Made by a program: the position numbers and the translations under genes
Shown here: one piece after another, positions 5,361-39,180 of the stretch
Numbering within the stretch: the first letter of the stretch is position 1
Layout of the letters: every line of letters starts with the position of its first letter
The notes under the pieces: model-generated
What the model was told of the DNA's origin: nothing
The model's database searches: none
The model's input: the letters and a program-made list of their open reading frames with translations, nothing else
Assembly: GCA_029975415.1 (NCBI GenBank)
Contig: JARKPE010000078.1
Location: 1 to 54,481, forward strand
DNA length: 54,481 nt
Direction: 5' to 3'
Source: Dysgonamonadaceae bacterium
Lineage (GTDB): Bacteria > Bacteroidota > Bacteroidia > Bacteroidales > Dysgonomonadaceae

Positions 5361-6356
5361 CTAATCAAGACTTATCCTATCGAATTTTTCGGGAATTTCG
5401 TCTATGATCGCAAACAATTCTTCGAGAGTATTGGCTCGCAACATGGCAATGCGTGTCGGCTTAAAATCGGGAATACCCTTAAATAAGGGGGTTGCCGCCA
5501 AATGACGACGAATATGCAATATGCCTCGTCGCTCATCCAATCGTTCTACACTTTGCAGCACTTGTTGCTTGAGTACATCGAGATACCATCGAAACGATTC
5601 TCGAGGAAGAATTTCGCCGGTCGTAAGGTAATGTTTCACTTCACGAAAAATCCACGGTCTTCCGAAGCTGGCACGACCTATCATTACGGCATCCACTCCG
5701 GTTTCGTCAAATCGTTTTTTAGCAACCTCCGCCGAGTCAATATCGCCGTTGCCGATAATGGGAATGTGCATTCGTGGATTGTTCTTCACTTCCCCTATCA
5801 GCGTCCAGTCGGCTTCGCCGGTGTACATTTGTGCGCGCGTACGTCCGTGAATGGTGAGTGCAGCAATACCACAATCTTGCAACTGTTCGGCCAATGAAAC
5901 AATGATTTTCGAATGTTCATCCCAACCCAAACGCGTTTTCACCGTAACCGGTTTTTTGACCGCTTTAACCACCTTTTCGGTAATTTCGAGCATTAGTTCA
6001 GGCGTTTTAAGCATTCCGGAACCGGCACCTTTGCCTGCAACTTTTTTCACCGGACAACCAAAATTTATATCGATTACATCAGGATCTGCCTCCTCACAAA
6101 TTTTGGCAGCTTCTACCATCGCATCCGGATCGCGTCCGTAGATCTGGATAGCAACAGGACGTTCGTCATCGCTAATTACAAGTTTTTCTCTGGTTTTTTT
6201 TACTTCTCTAACCAAAGCGTCGCTCGAAACAAATTCGGTATAAACCATGTCGGCCCCGAATTGTTTGCATAAAAGTCTAAAACCTATATCTGTTACATCC
6301 TCCATCGGAGCCAAAAAAACCGGGAAGCGAGAAAACTCTATTTCTCCTATTTTCAT
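5361..6356 (-). CDS. dusB: tRNA-dihydrouridine synthase B
   Basis: LAPMEDVTD, DINFGCPVKKV, IHGRT, GNGDI and VMIGRA motifs. Confidence 0.93.
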   Translation of the reverse strand: MKIGEIEFSRFPVFLAPMEDVTDIGFRLLCKQFGADMVYTEFVSSDALVREVKKTREKLVISDDERPVAIQIYGRDPDAMVEAAKICEEADPDVIDINFGCPVKKVAGKGAGSGMLKTPELMLEITEKVVKAVKKPVTVKTRLGWDEHSKIIVSLAEQLQDCGIAALTIHGRTRAQMYTGEADWTLIGEVKNNPRMHIPIIGNGDIDSAEVAKKRFDETGVDAVMIGRASFGRPWIFREVKHYLTTGEILPRESFRWYLDVLKQQVLQSVERLDERRGILHIRRHLAATPLFKGIPDFKPTRIAMLRANTLEELFAIIDEIPEKFDRISLD

Positions 6357-6739
6357 TTTGAAGAAGTTTTTGTTTGAGCGTAATTTTTCAACTTATTCCC
6401 CCACTCCATTTCATCGAATCCGACTAAAACAAAATCATCGGCTACAAGAATTGGCCTTTTGAGCAACTTCCCGTTTTGTGCCAATAAACGAACGAGTTCT
6501 TCTTTAGAAGCCGTTTTGACAATATTTTTCAGATTATTCTCTTTATAAACCTGACCTGAAGTATTGAAAAATTTGTGAATTGACAATCCGCTTTTTTCAA
6601 TCCATTCCGAAAGCTCTTTTTCCGAAGGATTTTCATCAACAATGTGACGAGAAACAACTTCTATATTATTTTCTTTAAGCCATTTAGCAGCTTTACGACA
6701 TGTTCCGCATAGCGGATATTGCAAAAAAAGAAGCTTCAT
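6353..6739 (-). CDS. ArsC/Spx/MgsR family protein (arsenate reductase-like)
   Basis: YPLCGTCRKA (CxxC), FFNTSG and LLKRPIL. Stop overlaps the dusB start (ATGA). Confidence 0.88.
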   Translation of the reverse strand: MKLLFLQYPLCGTCRKAAKWLKENNIEVVSRHIVDENPSEKELSEWIEKSGLSIHKFFNTSGQVYKENNLKNIVKTASKEELVRLLAQNGKLLKRPILVADDFVLVGFDEMEWGNKLKNYAQTKTSSK

Positions 6740-7252
6740 ACTTTACTGAAATTATTGGTAAAATATACTTGAAACATAAAAAATAGTTTCCATTTTCGAT
6801 ACACAAAAAACACAGATAGATAGTTTTTGTTCAACCGCAGAATCATCGACAAAAAATGTTGATAACATGTCGAACGTGTGTTCAATAAAAAATCATATTT
6901 CGATTTGCAAAATTCAAAAAAATTTTAAACGCAATAAACTTTTATTCTAAGAACAAAAGTTGAAAAAATTTCTCACTTTTTCATTCATGAGTTTTCAACT
7001 GTCACTCGTAACAAATAAGAAATAAATTATTAACTTTGCGAGATATAAACAGATGTTGATAAAATTTGTATTTGATTGAATTTTAAAAAATAAATCAAAG
7101 TTTATATTGTTAATTATTTACGAAAAGATTGCTTCTTCTTTTCATAACTTATTTTATTGGAAAAGTAAAAAAAGTAATCAACAATTTCAACAGGTTATCA
7201 TATTCATCATACCTTTTTTAGATTTTGAAAAAAATAAATATAAAAGTTGAAA
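6740..7252. other. Putative chromosomal replication origin (oriC)
   Basis: Largest intergenic gap in the window and very AT-rich. DnaA-box-like 9-mers: TTATCAACA (rc 6857-6865, rc 7054-7062), TTTTCAACT (rc 6958-6966, 6992-7000), TTATTAACA (rc 7108-7116), TAATCAACA+ATTTCAACA (7175-7192). These are followed by GG, period-3 repeats and an AT tract. Confidence 0.65.
7031..7038 (+). promoter_or_regulatory. -7 promoter element (TAACTTTG), probably for nadA
   Basis: Exact TAnnTTTG match followed by CG, oriented towards nadA. Confidence 0.5.
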
Positions 7253-8197
7253 ATGAAAAAGGAATTTCTCATCGACGAAATAAATAAAATCAGAAAAGAT
7301 AAAAATGCAATCATATTAGCCCATTATTACCAAGAACCAGAAATACAGGATATTGCAGATTTTGTCGGCGATAGTTTGGCATTAGCACAATGGGCTTCAA
7401 AGACTTCGGCGGATATCATTGTTTTGTGTGGTGTGCATTTTATGGGAGAAACAGCTAAAATATTGTGTCCCGAAAAACGAGTTTTTATTCCTGACGTTGC
7501 TGCAGGTTGTTCGCTCGCTGAAAGCTGTCCTGCTGATGAATTTAAAAAGTTTGTAGAAGAGCATCCCGATCACACGGTAATTTCGTATGTAAATACCACT
7601 GCCGTCGTGAAAGCGCTTACCGATATTGTTGTAACTTCAACTAATGCGCGACAGATAGTAGAATCGTTACCTGTGAACGAGAAAATCATTTTCGGTCCCG
7701 ATAGGAATTTGGGTGATTACATCAATAAACTCACAGGCAGACATATGCTTTTGTGGAATGGTGCTTGTCATGTACATCAACAGTTTTCGATGGATAGAAT
7801 TTTGGAGTTGAAAAAACAATATCCCGAAGCCCTATTGCTCGCTCATCCCGAATGCCCTAATTATCTGCTTCAAATAGCCGATCATATTGGATCTACATCT
7901 TCTTTATTGAAATATGCAACACAGTCCGAAAGAAAGCAATTTATAGTGGCAACCGAAGCGGGAATTTTGCATCAGATGCAAAAAAACAATCCCGAAAAAA
8001 TGTTTATCCCTGCACCTCCCGAAGATTCGACATGTGCTTGTAACGAATGTTTCTATATGAAAATGAATACATTAGAAAAACTACATGCTTGTTTGAAAAA
8101 TGAAACTCCCGAAATATTCATTGATGAGGAAATTCGCTTGAAAGCGGTAAAACCCATTGAGAGAATGCTTGAAATTTCCCAAAAGTATGGTTTGTAA
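7253..8197 (+). CDS. nadA: Quinolinate synthase
   Basis: ILAHYYQ, GDSLALA, CGVHFMGETAKIL, GCSLA, CHVH, AHPEC and CACNEC. ATG 7253 preferred over TTG 7247. Confidence 0.95.
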   Translation: MKKEFLIDEINKIRKDKNAIILAHYYQEPEIQDIADFVGDSLALAQWASKTSADIIVLCGVHFMGETAKILCPEKRVFIPDVAAGCSLAESCPADEFKKFVEEHPDHTVISYVNTTAVVKALTDIVVTSTNARQIVESLPVNEKIIFGPDRNLGDYINKLTGRHMLLWNGACHVHQQFSMDRILELKKQYPEALLLAHPECPNYLLQIADHIGSTSSLLKYATQSERKQFIVATEAGILHQMQKNNPEKMFIPAPPEDSTCACNECFYMKMNTLEKLHACLKNETPEIFIDEEIRLKAVKPIERMLEISQKYGL

Positions 8198-9425: not shown

Positions 9426-9440
9426 AATTTGCTTGAAAAT

Positions 9441-10514
9441 TTATCCGAAAATTGCTTCATTAAATTCCCTGTAATAATTGATTGTTTCTTTGGTAAGAAT
9501 ATCGAGCGGGACGTAATTTTCGACTTGTACGGGATTTCTGAAAACCAAATATTCGATCAGGGTTTTCATTGCCAAGAAACCTTGTTGTTCAGGTTCTTGA
9601 CCGATCAAAAAATAAATTTTATCCTTTTTCAGAGCTTCAATATTGGGTTGAGTCAAGTCCACGCAAACGAGTTTTATATTATCGATATGATTGTCGTACA
9701 TATAGTTGGCAATGATATTTCCTCGAGAATTTAAAACAACAATTCCTCCCACATCTTTGTTTTCTTTGAAAAATTGTGATAGAAAAAAGTTATTTTTTTC
9801 AGGTTCGAGTAGCGAAAATGGAATAGAAAGTATTTTGTTATCCAAGTTTTTTTCGGAAAGGTAATCCATAAATCCTTTTTTTCGTAATACAGTCGTATTT
9901 GCACTCTCGTTACCGATTCTTACGGCTTGCAATATTCCTATATCACTCGATTTTGGTATGATGGAGGTAATAAGTTTACTCATTAAATATCCACATGTGT
10001 AGTGATCGGACGAAAAAAAAGTCAGTGGAAACGATTCCTTTATGGTTGAATCGACAAAAATATAGGGTATAGACCTTTTATCAAGTTCGTTTGTCAATTT
10101 TACTGTTTCGGCGGGGAATGTAGGACCGATGATCATTGCATCGGCTTCCATTTTTATTATTTGATCAAAAGTACTACGACAGGAAAAAATATCGTATTGG
10201 TTATATGTAATAATTTGATAATCGACGCGAATATTCTGATATTCTTCCAGGGCACGTAAAATGCCGTTCTGGATACTTTCCCAGTATTCACCCCGAAATA
10301 TATGAGGCATGGTAATAATGATGCGGTATTTTCGTTTTAAAGACATACCACTGATGTGAATATTGGGTTTGTAGTCCACTTCACTCAGTACCTTTTCTAC
10401 GGCTTCTCTTGCTTTTTTCGAAACTTTTCCCCGATTATGAAGAATGCGATCTACGGTTCCAGTTGAAACACCGGCTCTTTCGGCTATGTCTTTGATGCGG
10501 ATTTTATTTTGCAT
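9441..10514 (-). CDS. LacI family transcriptional regulator
   Basis: N-terminal HTH RIKDIAERAGVSTGTVDRILHNRG plus a periplasmic-binding-protein-like effector domain. Confidence 0.9.
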   Translation of the reverse strand: MQNKIRIKDIAERAGVSTGTVDRILHNRGKVSKKAREAVEKVLSEVDYKPNIHISGMSLKRKYRIIITMPHIFRGEYWESIQNGILRALEEYQNIRVDYQIITYNQYDIFSCRSTFDQIIKMEADAMIIGPTFPAETVKLTNELDKRSIPYIFVDSTIKESFPLTFFSSDHYTCGYLMSKLITSIIPKSSDIGILQAVRIGNESANTTVLRKKGFMDYLSEKNLDNKILSIPFSLLEPEKNNFFLSQFFKENKDVGGIVVLNSRGNIIANYMYDNHIDNIKLVCVDLTQPNIEALKKDKIYFLIGQEPEQQGFLAMKTLIEYLVFRNPVQVENYVPLDILTKETINYYREFNEAIFG

Positions 10515-15614: not shown

Positions 15615-16610
15615 ATGAGTCAAGTAGTTGATATCAAAGAATTAAATGAAAAAATTGAACAGAAAAGTGCTTTCGTTCAGACCATAACTACGGGAATGGA
15701 TCATGTAATTGTCGGCCAAAAACATCTGGTAGAGTCGCTTTTAATCGGACTCTTATCCGATGGACATATTTTGCTGGAAGGAGTTCCCGGTTTGGCCAAA
15801 ACGCTTGCAATAAAAACGTTGGCTCAACTGATCGATGCCAAATACAACCGCATTCAGTTCACCCCCGACTTATTGCCGGCTGACGTTGTCGGTACAATGA
15901 TTTACAGTCAGCGCAACGAAGAGTTTCAAGTGAAACACGGGCCTGTATTTGCAAACTTTGTATTGGCCGATGAAATCAATCGTGCGCCGGCCAAAGTTCA
16001 GAGCGCATTGCTCGAAGCCATGCAGGAACGACAGGTTACCATCGGAGAATCTACTTATCGCTTGCCGAATCCTTTTTTGGTTATGGCTACGCAAAATCCG
16101 ATAGAGCAGGAGGGAACCTATCCGCTTCCGGAAGCACAGGTGGACCGTTTTATGTTGAAAGTTGTTATTGGATATCCTTCGAAAGAAGAAGAAAAGCGCA
16201 TTATCCGTCAAAATATTTTCGAACCCGTAGGGATTGACAAACCGGTGATAACAACAGATGAAATTCTCGAGGCTCGAAAAGTGGTTCGCGAAGTGTATAT
16301 TGACGAAAAAATTGAACGTTATATTGTCGATATTGTTTTTGCAACTCGTTTCCCCGAGCAGTTTGGTTTGCCCAATCTCAAAGATATGATCGGTTTTGGT
16401 GGTTCACCACGTGCTTCTATCAATTTGGCCCTGGCTGCTCGAAGTTTCGCTTTTATCAAGCGCCGCGGCTATGTTATACCCGAAGACATTCGCGCGGTCT
16501 GTCACGATGTACTTCGTCACCGCATTGGTCTTACCTACGAAGCTGAAGCCAATAATATGACATCCGAAGAAATCATTAGTGAAATTCTCAATAAGGTGGA
16601 AGTACCTTAA
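15615..16610 (+). CDS. moxR: MoxR family AAA+ ATPase
   Basis: LLEGVPGLAKT, RIQFTPDLLPAD, LADEINRAPAKVQSALLEAMQE and TQNPIEQEGTYPLPEAQ. Start MSQVV preferred; TATTTTTG at 15566-15573. Confidence 0.93.
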   Translation: MSQVVDIKELNEKIEQKSAFVQTITTGMDHVIVGQKHLVESLLIGLLSDGHILLEGVPGLAKTLAIKTLAQLIDAKYNRIQFTPDLLPADVVGTMIYSQRNEEFQVKHGPVFANFVLADEINRAPAKVQSALLEAMQERQVTIGESTYRLPNPFLVMATQNPIEQEGTYPLPEAQVDRFMLKVVIGYPSKEEEKRIIRQNIFEPVGIDKPVITTDEILEARKVVREVYIDEKIERYIVDIVFATRFPEQFGLPNLKDMIGFGGSPRASINLALAARSFAFIKRRGYVIPEDIRAVCHDVLRHRIGLTYEAEANNMTSEEIISEILNKVEVP

Positions 16611-24863: not shown

Positions 24864-25148
24864 ATGGCAAAAACTCTCACATTTAATGAATTACGATCTT
24901 TTAAAGACAAATTGCCTGACGGAAGTATGCACAAAATTGCAGACGAGTTAGAGCTTGATATCGAAACAGTACGTAATTATTTCGGTGGTCATAATTATAA
25001 ATACGGTTCAAGTGTGGGTATTCACATCGAACCGGGTCCCGATGGAGGAATAGTAGTATTGGATGATACAACTATCTTTGACAAGGCATTGGAAATTTTA
25101 GGCCTTTCGGATTATCCCGAAACGCCTGTTGAAGAAGATCGTGTGTAG
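24864..25148 (+). CDS. Small conserved Bacteroidales DNA-binding (HTH-like) protein
   Basis: TFNELR..KD.LP.GSMHKIADEL.L.IETVRNYFGG helix-turn-helix pattern and HIEPGPDGGIV. Confidence 0.75.
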   Translation: MAKTLTFNELRSFKDKLPDGSMHKIADELELDIETVRNYFGGHNYKYGSSVGIHIEPGPDGGIVVLDDTTIFDKALEILGLSDYPETPVEEDRV

Positions 25149-37791: not shown

Positions 37792-39180
37792 TTAATGCGA
37801 AGTAATTTTTTTCAGAACGGCGGTTCTCAAAAGAGAAAGTTGCCCGCCTATGAAAAACATTTCAATCGCAAGTAAGAGATCTTCCGGTATTCCTTCATAA
37901 AGGTCTAAGCTCAACATTATGCTTATGAAACCTTCTAAGTTGTTGTGAGACATAAAGTAGCATAACCTTAGTAATTCGAGAATATAGAACTCTGAATATG
38001 AAATTGTTTCTCGGAAAGGGAAAAATTCGGAAAACTCGAGCCATGTTTCATCCGGCACAATCATTTTATTTTTAAATTGTTCCATAAGGAATTGTGCCTT
38101 CAAAAGAGGGAAATCGGGATATTTATCGAAATATTCTTTAACTTTTTTTGCTCTTTTGTTCTTATTTTTTTCATCAATAATTTCGTAATAGAGTACAAAT
38201 GGAATTTTGCCCCATTTCTTACGAATGTATTTCAACATTTTTTCTTTGTTGGCAGTTGTCAGATAATTCAAGTCCTTCTCGGTAAATGGTTGGTCAGGAG
38301 CTAATCCGAGCGATTCGCGACTGATTAAATCGGCAATCTGAATTTTTTCAGACTCTTCTTGCCATTTTTTTAGCCATTCATCAACTAAATCCTTCTTAAC
38401 AATATCTTTTTTTAAAACATCGATAAGAACCATCAACTTTGTGGCATCCGGTATAAAACTGTCGTCATTCAATAGTTCATTCTCATCTAAAAAATTAGTA
38501 AACTCTAAAAAAAGCTTGGCATTTTCTTCAAACGAATTAGATAAATATTCGGAATAATTATCCTCAAAATCTTTATCGTCAATACCCTCATCGTCAAAAT
38601 CTTCATCCATTTCATCAGATAACAGATAATCATAATTGTTCGGCCCGACTTCTTTATCGAGATGATTCAAAATCTGCCTTGCCTTAGCATCCGAATCTAT
38701 TTCTCCCTGGATGTAATAAGGTCTGCCATTTTCATCGCCACAGGCAATATCGATAAGAGGAATTTTTTCATCGTCTTCTTCGAGCATGTATTGCGTGATT
38801 GACTCAAAATCTTTATGAGGCTTAAACCCTATTTCTTCCGCAAATTCTAAAGCAGCAAATATAATGTTGTGAACAAGATTGTATTCAACCACTGACATAG
38901 ACATGGTTTCAGTAAATTTCTCGATCATCTCATCATATTCCCATTTCGAAATATTAAATCTGAAAAATGTGTCTTTTACTCCTAAGCATAACAAATCAAC
39001 CAAATAAAAACATACAGTAAGGTTACCATTTATATGCTCTCTGGAGATAATGATATAGGCCAATCCGCTATCGTCCCAGCCGTCGTTGATTAAGCATTGG
39101 GATAAAGGCAGATTTCGAGCACGTTGACGAATATAATTTTCGGGAGACAAAATTTGCTGACGGGTTTGTTTTTTGGTCAT
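37792..39180 (-). CDS. Hypothetical acidic protein
   Basis: 462-aa ORF with its own TATCTTTG (rc 39206-39213). N-terminal LSPENYIRQRARNLP...YLVDLLCLGVKDTF block, D/E-rich linker and helical C-terminus. No function recognised. Confidence 0.8.
   Translation of the reverse strand: MTKKQTRQQILSPENYIRQRARNLPLSQCLINDGWDDSGLAYIIISREHINGNLTVCFYLVDLLCLGVKDTFFRFNISKWEYDEMIEKFTETMSMSVVEYNLVHNIIFAALEFAEEIGFKPHKDFESITQYMLEEDDEKIPLIDIACGDENGRPYYIQGEIDSDAKARQILNHLDKEVGPNNYDYLLSDEMDEDFDDEGIDDKDFEDNYSEYLSNSFEENAKLFLEFTNFLDENELLNDDSFIPDATKLMVLIDVLKKDIVKKDLVDEWLKKWQEESEKIQIADLISRESLGLAPDQPFTEKDLNYLTTANKEKMLKYIRKKWGKIPFVLYYEIIDEKNKNKRAKKVKEYFDKYPDFPLLKAQFLMEQFKNKMIVPDETWLEFSEFFPFRETISYSEFYILELLRLCYFMSHNNLEGFISIMLSLDLYEGIPEDLLLAIEMFFIGGQLSLLRTAVLKKITSH

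What the first reader, a model, noticed from the sequence alone, without database searches (positions are those of the whole stretch)
6740..7252. Probable oriC between arsC and nadA, with no dnaA in the window and variant DnaA boxes (TTWTCAACA)
Seen: a ~510 bp AT-rich gene-free gap with at least eight related 9-mers: rc 6857-6865 and rc 7054-7062 TTATCAACA; rc 6958-6966 and 6992-7000 TTTTCAACT as an inverted pair; 7027-7035 TTATTAACT; rc 7108-7116 TTATTAACA; 7175-7183 TAATCAACA; 7184-7192 ATTTCAACA. All have A instead of C at position 6 of the canonical TTATCCACA. No dnaA, dnaN or gidA is in the window. A few spot-checked lines suggested more G than C to the right and a more C-rich left, but I did not quantify this. 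Inference: the chromosomal origin with lineage-specific DnaA specificity. This is the strongest unexplained structure in the window.
Basis: partly seen in the sequence, partly recalled or inferred. Interest (0 to 1): 0.75.

Follow-up and report, generated by a model that had tools for sequence, protein, structure and literature searches.

The report
Bacteroidales replication origin beside nadA
The AT-rich gap upstream of nadA is very likely where this uncultured Bacteroidales bacterium starts copying its chromosome; origins far from dnaA are already known in this group, so the find is solid but fairly ordinary, apart from an altered spelling of the predicted initiator-binding sites.

Summary
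Seven of 8 listed 9-mers read as stated. The gap is the densest TTWTCAACA cluster in the 2.03-Mb assembly. It holds the assembly's only tandem-box, 4-nt gap, five-trio module (7175-7211), in the register of the B. subtilis basal unwinding system (BUS). Seven of the 8 boxes are conserved in relatives; 6958 is not.

In two complete relatives the GC-skew minimum lies 5.1 and 1.8 kb from the element, and dnaA 0.29 and 1.18 Mb away. In one of them the element is 191 kb from nadA, so it tracks the skew, not nadA. parS sites lie within 56 kb in four relatives. Skew in draft relatives is mixed. The organism's own dnaA is not assembled, and nothing was tested at the bench.

An origin far from dnaA is published as common in Bacteroidetes, and TTATCAACA boxes occur in published origin tables. 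This scan noted six similar Bacteroidales origins before. The one less-trodden point: the trios read 3'-TAG/TAA/TAT-5', not 3'-GAT-5'. Matching DnaA substitutions exist, but phylum controls show they do not explain the DNA spelling on their own.

The parts
6740..7252 (.). Intergenic region, predicted chromosomal oriC; also carries the upstream regions of the divergent flanking genes
   Evidence: GC 0.226; top box window of the assembly; skew minimum at 7007; conserved layout
6857..6865 (-). Strongest predicted DnaA box, TTATCAACA; first of a three-box array with 2-bp gaps
   Evidence: 13 of 13 relatives within 2 mismatches, column identity 0.97 against background 0.52
6868..6887 (-).
   Evidence: 8 of 13 and 9 of 13 relatives within 2 mismatches, column identity only 0.52-0.55; array pattern occurs once in the window; 2-bp spacing is described as optimal for DnaA arrays (PMC8235120)
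6958..6966 (-).
   Evidence: 0 of 13 relatives, identity 0.44
6992..7000 (+). Predicted DnaA box TTTTCAACT
   Evidence: 11 of 13 relatives
7027..7038 (+). Predicted box TTATTAACT (7027-7035) overlapping TAACTTTG (7031-7038), the only match in the gap to the Bacteroides -7 promoter element TAnnTTTG; possibly the nadA promoter
   Evidence: Box 12 of 13 relatives; promoter consensus from PMC4747536; promoter role inferred
7054..7062 (-). Predicted DnaA box TTATCAACA
   Evidence: 9 of 13 relatives
7108..7116 (-). Predicted DnaA box, degenerate here (TAATTAACA)
   Evidence: 13 of 13 relatives
7139..7147 (-).
   Evidence: 11 of 13 relatives
7175..7192 (+). Tandem boxes TAATCAACA and ATTTCAACA, the counterpart of B. 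subtilis boxes 6 and 7
   Evidence: 12 of 13 and 13 of 13 relatives; single hit in the assembly
7193..7196 (+). 4-nt spacer GGTT (relatives mostly GGC then T or A)
   Evidence: B. subtilis spacer is 4 nt (PMC8287927 Table S1)
7197..7211 (-). Five predicted DnaA-trios, bottom strand 3'-TAG TAT AAG TAG TAT-5'
   Evidence: central A in 95 of 110 triplets over 22 loci
7212..7246 (.). AT-rich tract (86% AT), predicted extension of the unwound region
   Evidence: AT-rich at the same place in the 15-row alignment
6353..6739 (-). Left flank: ArsC/Spx-MgsR family gene; not a conserved neighbour
   Evidence: TIGR01617, PF03960; found upstream of nadA only in the window and the congener, 2 of 25 loci
7253..8197 (+). 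Right flank: nadA, quinolinate synthase; usual but not obligatory neighbour
   Evidence: TIGR00550, NF006878 over cut-off; 21 of 22 GTDB hits of the module lie next to nadA; not so in G011

Best explanation
The gap 6740-7252 is very likely the DnaA-dependent chromosomal origin (oriC) of a Bacteroidales bacterium, probably of the Dysgonomonadaceae, and is predicted to lie far from dnaA as it does in its complete relatives. Shown in sequence: a conserved set of TTWT(C/T)AACA 9-mers, a tandem pair, a 4-nt gap, five central-A triplets and an AT-rich tract. Inferred from B. subtilis: DnaA domain IV would bind the boxes; the tandem pair at 7175-7192 would launch an ATP-DnaA filament onto the bottom-strand trios at 7197-7211; stretching and base capture would open the duplex into 7212-7246, where helicase would load; the upstream boxes would gather DnaA and set timing.
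For: Layout: only hit in 2.03 Mb for two boxes, 4 nt and 5 or more central-A triplets, same register as the B. subtilis row of PMC8287927 Table S1. Conservation: 7 of the 8 listed boxes are kept in 9-13 of 13 relatives while the left neighbour gene changes; an exact module pattern hits 22 stretches in GTDB, 21 next to nadA. Skew: complete G017, minimum 5.1 kb from the element in 360 kb of contiguous DNA, 20 of 20 spaced samples with the sign expected of two replichores (two near zero), dnaA 292 kb away; complete G011, minimum 1.8 kb from the element in 400 kb, nadA 191 kb and dnaA 1.18 Mb away. All 8 parS matches with at most 1 mismatch in 5 genomes lie within 56 kb of the element (for G000 by synteny); gidA lies beside that parS. 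Literature: PMC4755523 and PMC10197239.
Against: No binding, unwinding or coverage data. The organism's own dnaA is not in the assembly, so DnaA statements rest on relatives. Draft relatives give mixed skew: within 40 kb each side the raw sign flips as expected in 4 of 5 (not G015), the gene-strand-balanced measure in only 2 of 5 (not G015, G006, G019); over longer stretches G001 turns negative again about 60 kb on and G006 is positive on both sides. G011's left arm is noisy in spaced samples. In the window the four-fold-site minimum is at 17.3 kb and contig C17 shows no clear skew. The C17-C39 adjacency is inferred from synteny; my test found no exact end overlap. The bare tandem 17-mer is not diagnostic: of 30 order-wide loci read, only the window's own lay next to nadA.
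Confidence: 0.92

Rival explanations
1. The boxes are operator sites of a transcription factor controlling nadA (NAD synthesis) or the divergent gene.
For: The cluster sits upstream of nadA in 21 of 22 GTDB hits; a Bacteroides-type -7 promoter match overlaps one box.
Against: In complete G011 the same module is 191 kb from nadA and at the skew minimum, and G011's nadA has no such cluster. The left gene changes among relatives. An operator reading does not explain the trios in BUS register or the nearby parS.
Confidence: 0.03
2. It is an origin-proximal DnaA-binding cluster (datA- or DARS-like, titrating or recharging DnaA), and the true origin is another gap nearby.
For: Skew minima are resolved only to 2-5 kb in complete relatives, 19 kb in G009, and not at all in G015. 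B. subtilis has several DnaA-box clusters outside oriC (PMC2533591).
Against: The site carries a complete unwinding-type module found once in the assembly; no other 500-bp window scores as high. The assembly is 84% complete, so a missed competitor cannot be excluded.
Confidence: 0.04
3. The matches are a by-product of AT-rich composition.
For: The gap is 77% AT and the motif was chosen after seeing it; two matches (6958, 7223) behave like chance.
Against: Shuffles reach the count in 4 of 2000; box columns are 0.73-0.97 identical across genera against 0.52 background.
Confidence: 0.01

Closest known systems
Bacillus subtilis oriC basal unwinding system (boxes 6/7, spacer, DnaA-trios; PMC8287927, PMC10721633)
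   Same: Tandem boxes, 4-nt spacer, five or more triplets with central A in the same register, then an AT-rich tract.
   Different: Boxes read TTWTCAACA, not TTATCCACA; box period is 9 bp, not 8; trios read 3'-TAG/TAA/TAT-5' (0 of 110 are GAT or AAT); spacer is less GC-rich here; not linked to dnaA in relatives.
DoriC/Ori-Finder-predicted Bacteroidales origins: Prevotella intermedia OMA14 (PMC4755523); Porphyromonas gingivalis, Prevotella ruminicola 23 and Alistipes finegoldii rows of PMC8287927 Table S1
   Same: OMA14: origin at a skew transition far from dnaA. P. gingivalis rows show TTATCAACA or TTTTCAACA boxes; the P. gingivalis W83 and P. ruminicola rows start their trios with 3'-TAG-5'.
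   Different: Those four rows were scored against the E. coli box as mismatches, with no group-specific motif. None of the 14 Bacteroidales rows seen is Proteiniphilum, Petrimonas or Fermentimonas (the file was cut when stored). The Alistipes row has canonical-type trios.
TTATCAACA as a DnaA box elsewhere (standard motif for Borrelia burgdorferi B31 and Maribacter sp. HTCC2170; one-mismatch box in Clostridium acetobutylicum, Treponema, Ehrlichia and others; PMC8287927 Table S1)
   Same: Identical 9-mer.
   Different: In most of those rows it is one mismatched box scored against the C-containing standard; here all conserved strong boxes have A at position 6.

Membership tests
DnaA-dependent bacterial oriC | Intergenic cluster of DnaA-box-like 9-mers beyond chance | tested here: met
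   (with the A6 spelling; the canonical spelling is not enriched)
DnaA-dependent bacterial oriC | Located at the GC-skew minimum | tested here: met
   2 of 2 complete relatives and the window; draft relatives mixed, G015 does not fit
DnaA-dependent bacterial oriC | AT-rich unwinding region next to the boxes | tested here: met
   7197-7246, 80-86% AT; melting not measured
DnaA-dependent bacterial oriC | One copy per chromosome | tested here: met
   One hit in the 84%-complete assembly
DnaA-dependent bacterial oriC | parS sites nearby (supporting, not defining) | tested here: met
   8 of 8 sites with at most 1 mismatch within 56 kb (G000 by synteny)
DnaA-dependent bacterial oriC | The genome encodes DnaA | tested here: inconclusive
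   Not found in G000; found in 15 of 15 relatives searched by handle, including the congener
DnaA-dependent bacterial oriC | DnaA binds and opens it; replication starts there | not testable with these tools
   Needs bench work; the runs laid were contigs, whose depth is flat
Basal unwinding system (BUS) | Box or tandem boxes with at most 2 and 4 mismatches to the standard motif | tested here: met
   7175 has 2 and 7184 has 3 mismatches to TTATCCACA (1 and 2 to TTATCAACA); rule from PMC8287927
Basal unwinding system (BUS) | Spacer of at most 16 bp, then at least three NAN triplets | tested here: met
   13 bp after the first box, five triplets
Basal unwinding system (BUS) | Trio consensus 3'-GAT-5' | tested here: not met
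   87 of 110 triplets are 3'-TAG/TAA/TAT-5', none GAT or AAT; it works like a BUS by layout but is a variant in spelling

The most novel reading that the evidence does not exclude
Bacteroidales origins use a respelled code on both DnaA surfaces: boxes TTAT(C/T)AACA read by a domain IV with T435A, and mirror-image trios 3'-TAG-5' captured by a pocket in which the guanine-reading R202 and E228 are replaced by aliphatic or small residues, so DnaA would capture T-A instead of G-A. If so, standard origin finders misplace many Bacteroidota origins, some on parS sites, and a corrected motif would locate them from draft genomes.
Probability: 0.3. Interest if true: 0.55.

Novelty: new variant of a known kind. 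Interest (0 to 1): 0.3.

Why it matters
It fixes the likely origin of an uncultured Bacteroidales bacterium and gives base-level coordinates for a ready in vitro test. I found no experimental dissection of a Bacteroidales oriC in the searches run. The 3'-TAG-5' trios would be a natural test of the base-capture model, which rests on G and A contacts in B. subtilis. For metagenomics it is one more case where dnaA is a poor origin marker. The basic claim, an origin far from dnaA in this phylum, is already published.

Tried and rejected
Hidden gene or RNA in the gap: no ORF over 49 aa; one Rfam match at E 0.62, far below its gathering score. One RNA run's contigs covered both flanks but not 6784-7355; contigs cannot show absence. 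Misassembly: one contig spans 6300-7600 identically (it may be this DNA's source) and a contig from another study spans it with 39 substitutions.

The 6958/6992 inverted pair: 6958 is not conserved. Sigma-70 scan: 4 sites against 4.5 expected, uninformative for this phylum.

Order-wide search with the bare tandem 17-mer: 67 of 201 genomes matched, but most of the 30 loci read were inside ORFs and only the window's own was next to nadA. Family search with a box-plus-trio pattern: 38 of 117 genomes, 15 of 30 loci read next to nadA; the window itself did not match this pattern.

DnaA-DNA co-variation was not established. R202 is also absent in 30 of 30 other-class and 18 of 18 other-order DnaAs, and L241 has R202S/E228L beside a putative module with canonical-type trios. 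P423 is replaced in all three groups. D433N is limited to 6 of 16 order-level DnaAs. T435A is in 15 of 16 order-level DnaAs but also in 5 of 17 from other orders.

Literature: full-text search for TTATCAACA returned 347 papers, the 20 listed all unrelated; oriC + DnaA box + Bacteroides + nadA returned 0; DnaA-trio + Bacteroid returned 1 unrelated paper. Ori-Finder 2022 Table S2 lists neither Bacteroidetes nor nadA. The E. coli domain IV structure paper could not be read, so which base T435 contacts is left open.

Full report
Setting. The window is the whole contig C39 of an 84%-complete, 2.03-Mb, 141-contig assembly. It carries a Bacteroidota-specific BamI-family gene. An exact pattern for the module described below hits 22 GTDB stretches. 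Where a title names a genus it is Proteiniphilum, Petrimonas, Fermentimonas or Anaerorudis; the others say Dysgonomonadaceae, Porphyromonadaceae or only an order, class or phylum. I infer Dysgonomonadaceae. The best DNA holders are wastewater and sludge runs.

Observation. The gap between an ArsC/Spx-family gene and nadA is 513 bp at GC 0.226. Seven of the 8 listed 9-mers are as written; 7108-7116 reads TAATTAACA. TTWTCAACA with at most one mismatch occurs 7 times against 1.9 in shuffles (4 of 2000 reach it), the site is the top of 39,314 windows in the assembly, and the canonical spelling is not enriched. The motif came from the site, so this test is lenient. dnaN is on C101, gidA on C17, and dnaA was not found in the assembly.

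Conservation. nadA was found in 27 of 31 genomes. I aligned the 520 bases upstream for the 15 best-scoring loci; the more distant ones were read separately, and two truncated loci and three fragments were left out. Leaving out the window and its congener, the boxes at 6857, 6992, 7027, 7054, 7108, 7175 and 7184 are kept in 13, 11, 12, 9, 13, 12 and 13 of 13 rows, at column identities of 0.73-0.97 against 0.52 background. The 6958 box is kept in 0 of 13. The left neighbour gene changes from genome to genome.

Unwinding module. 7175-7211 reads TAATCAACA ATTTCAACA GGTT ATC ATA TTC ATC ATA, followed by an 86%-AT tract. The B. subtilis BUS is two boxes, a 4-nt gap and triplets with central A on the bottom strand (PMC8287927, methods section and Table S1 rows); the register is the same. 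The pattern occurs once in the assembly with the A6 spelling and never with the canonical one. I scanned 25 nadA-upstream regions, dropped 3 that lack the module (G011, G005, G018, whose nadA is only 52-56% identical) and read the other 22 at fixed register. 95 of 110 triplets have central A; 87 are 3'-TAG, TAA or TAT-5'; none is 3'-GAT or AAT-5'. The anchor scoring favoured A6 boxes but set no condition on the triplets. In more distant families the second box is mostly xxATTAACA.

Position on the chromosome. In the window the cumulative skew minimum is at 7007, but the left arm is short. In complete G017 the minimum over 360 kb is 5.1 kb from the element; 11 spaced samples from 10 kb to 2.0 Mb are positive, 8 from 2.2 to 3.6 Mb negative, and the one at 4.0 Mb positive; dnaA is 292 kb away. 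Complete G011 is the sharper test. Its nadA has no cluster; the module lies at 1,652,801, the skew minimum over 400 kb is at 1,650,954, nadA is 191 kb and dnaA 1.18 Mb away. The element therefore follows the skew and not nadA. All 8 parS matches with at most one mismatch in five genomes lie 17-56 kb from the element. For G000 this rests on synteny: C17 abuts C39 in the congener's contig, which puts the perfect parS and gidA about 21 kb to the left. parS clusters with skew are a published way to place origins, with the warning that dnaA does not always mark them (PMC10197239, passages).

Results against. In five draft relatives the raw skew within 40 kb flips as expected in four (G001, G006 weakly, G009, G019) and not in G015. 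A gene-strand-balanced measure fits only G001 and G009. Over longer stretches G001 turns negative again and G006 is positive on both sides. G011's left arm is noisy. Inversions or weak skew could explain this; I did not test that. The bare tandem 17-mer mostly hits coding sequence across the order.

DnaA. The base-reading residues of E. coli domain IV are R399, P423, D433, H434, T435 and H439 (PMC2533591, PMC7561715, passages). The congener's DnaA reads RNHATVVHA for RDHTTVLHA and has S at 423. T435 is A in 15 of 16 order-level DnaAs, 5 of 17 from other orders and 0 of 30 from other classes. In B. subtilis the trio guanine is held by R202 and E228 (PMC10721633, passages); both are replaced in 12 of 12 order-level DnaAs, which would fit T at that position. 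The controls weaken this: R202 is absent in all 48 non-Bacteroidales DnaAs read, and L241 pairs R202S/E228L with canonical-type trios. The weak second box has C6 in 7 of 13 relatives, so specificity may be relaxed and not switched. This part is a hypothesis.

Mechanism, most likely. Shown: the layout, its conservation, its uniqueness in the assembly and its position at the skew minimum in two complete relatives. Inferred by analogy: DnaA binds the boxes, oligomerises from the tandem pair onto the trios, opens the duplex into the AT tract, and helicase loads. Confidence 0.92. Rivals are a nadA operator (0.03), a datA/DARS-like cluster (0.04) and chance (0.01).

What is known. PMC4755523 (passages) states that oriC is commonly far from dnaA in Bacteroidetes. 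Table S1 of PMC8287927 (rows seen; file cut when stored) shows TTATCAACA or TTTTCAACA boxes in P. gingivalis, TAG-first trios in P. gingivalis W83 and P. ruminicola, and TTATCAACA as the standard motif for B. burgdorferi B31 and Maribacter. DoriC 10.0 and Ori-Finder 2022 (passages, and the latter's two supplements) do not mention the group. My searches found no paper that names a Bacteroidales-specific box or the reversed trio consensus; subscription papers and the DoriC records were not searchable. This scan reported six similar Bacteroidales origins on other genomes, five of them next to nadA, each summarised there as ordinary or fairly ordinary; I had reached my reading before seeing them.

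Verdict. A real and well-supported oriC with a variant spelling. Interest 0.3. The novel case, a respelled two-surface code, has probability 0.3.

Noticed in passing
PMC8287927 Table S1, rows for Paludibacter, Tannerella, Flavobacterium johnsoniae, Zunongwangia, Croceibacter: The listed 'DnaA box' plus gap spells a parS-like palindrome (TGTTCCACGTGGAACA or one base off, on the other strand; consensus). Some published Bacteroidota origin calls may therefore be parS sites near the origin, not DnaA boxes.
   Followed up: partly
G000:C17:14140-16026: A perfect parS lies 18 bp from the end of gidA (mnmG), about 21 kb left of the element by synteny with the congener.
   Followed up: yes
L149 (G255:C6) and L169 (G011:C1:1652479-1652896): In genus g11 the origin module lies between other genes, away from nadA; nadA there is only about 56% identical to the window's, suggesting replacement or relocation of nadA. 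The module's place in G005 and G018 was not found.
   Followed up: partly
L032-L035, L133-L135, L265: DnaA of family f1 has L or I at the position of B. subtilis K222, described as essential for backbone contact at the unwinding fork; one other order-level DnaA also has L.
   Followed up: no
window 9434-9445 against G001:C33: Synteny with the congener breaks just after ychF: the next window gene matches about 27 kb further along the congener's contig.
   Followed up: no
window 24864-25148 (+) and 37792-39180 (-): A 94-aa and a 462-aa ORF with no Pfam or strong NCBIfam match.
   Followed up: no
G015:C4 and G006:C22: Both carry the full module next to nadA (G015 also two parS within 22 kb) yet show no clean skew flip; possible local inversions or misjoins.
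   Followed up: partly
window 15922-15937: A parS-like site with 2 mismatches; at this level matches are about as frequent as the control pattern.
   Followed up: no
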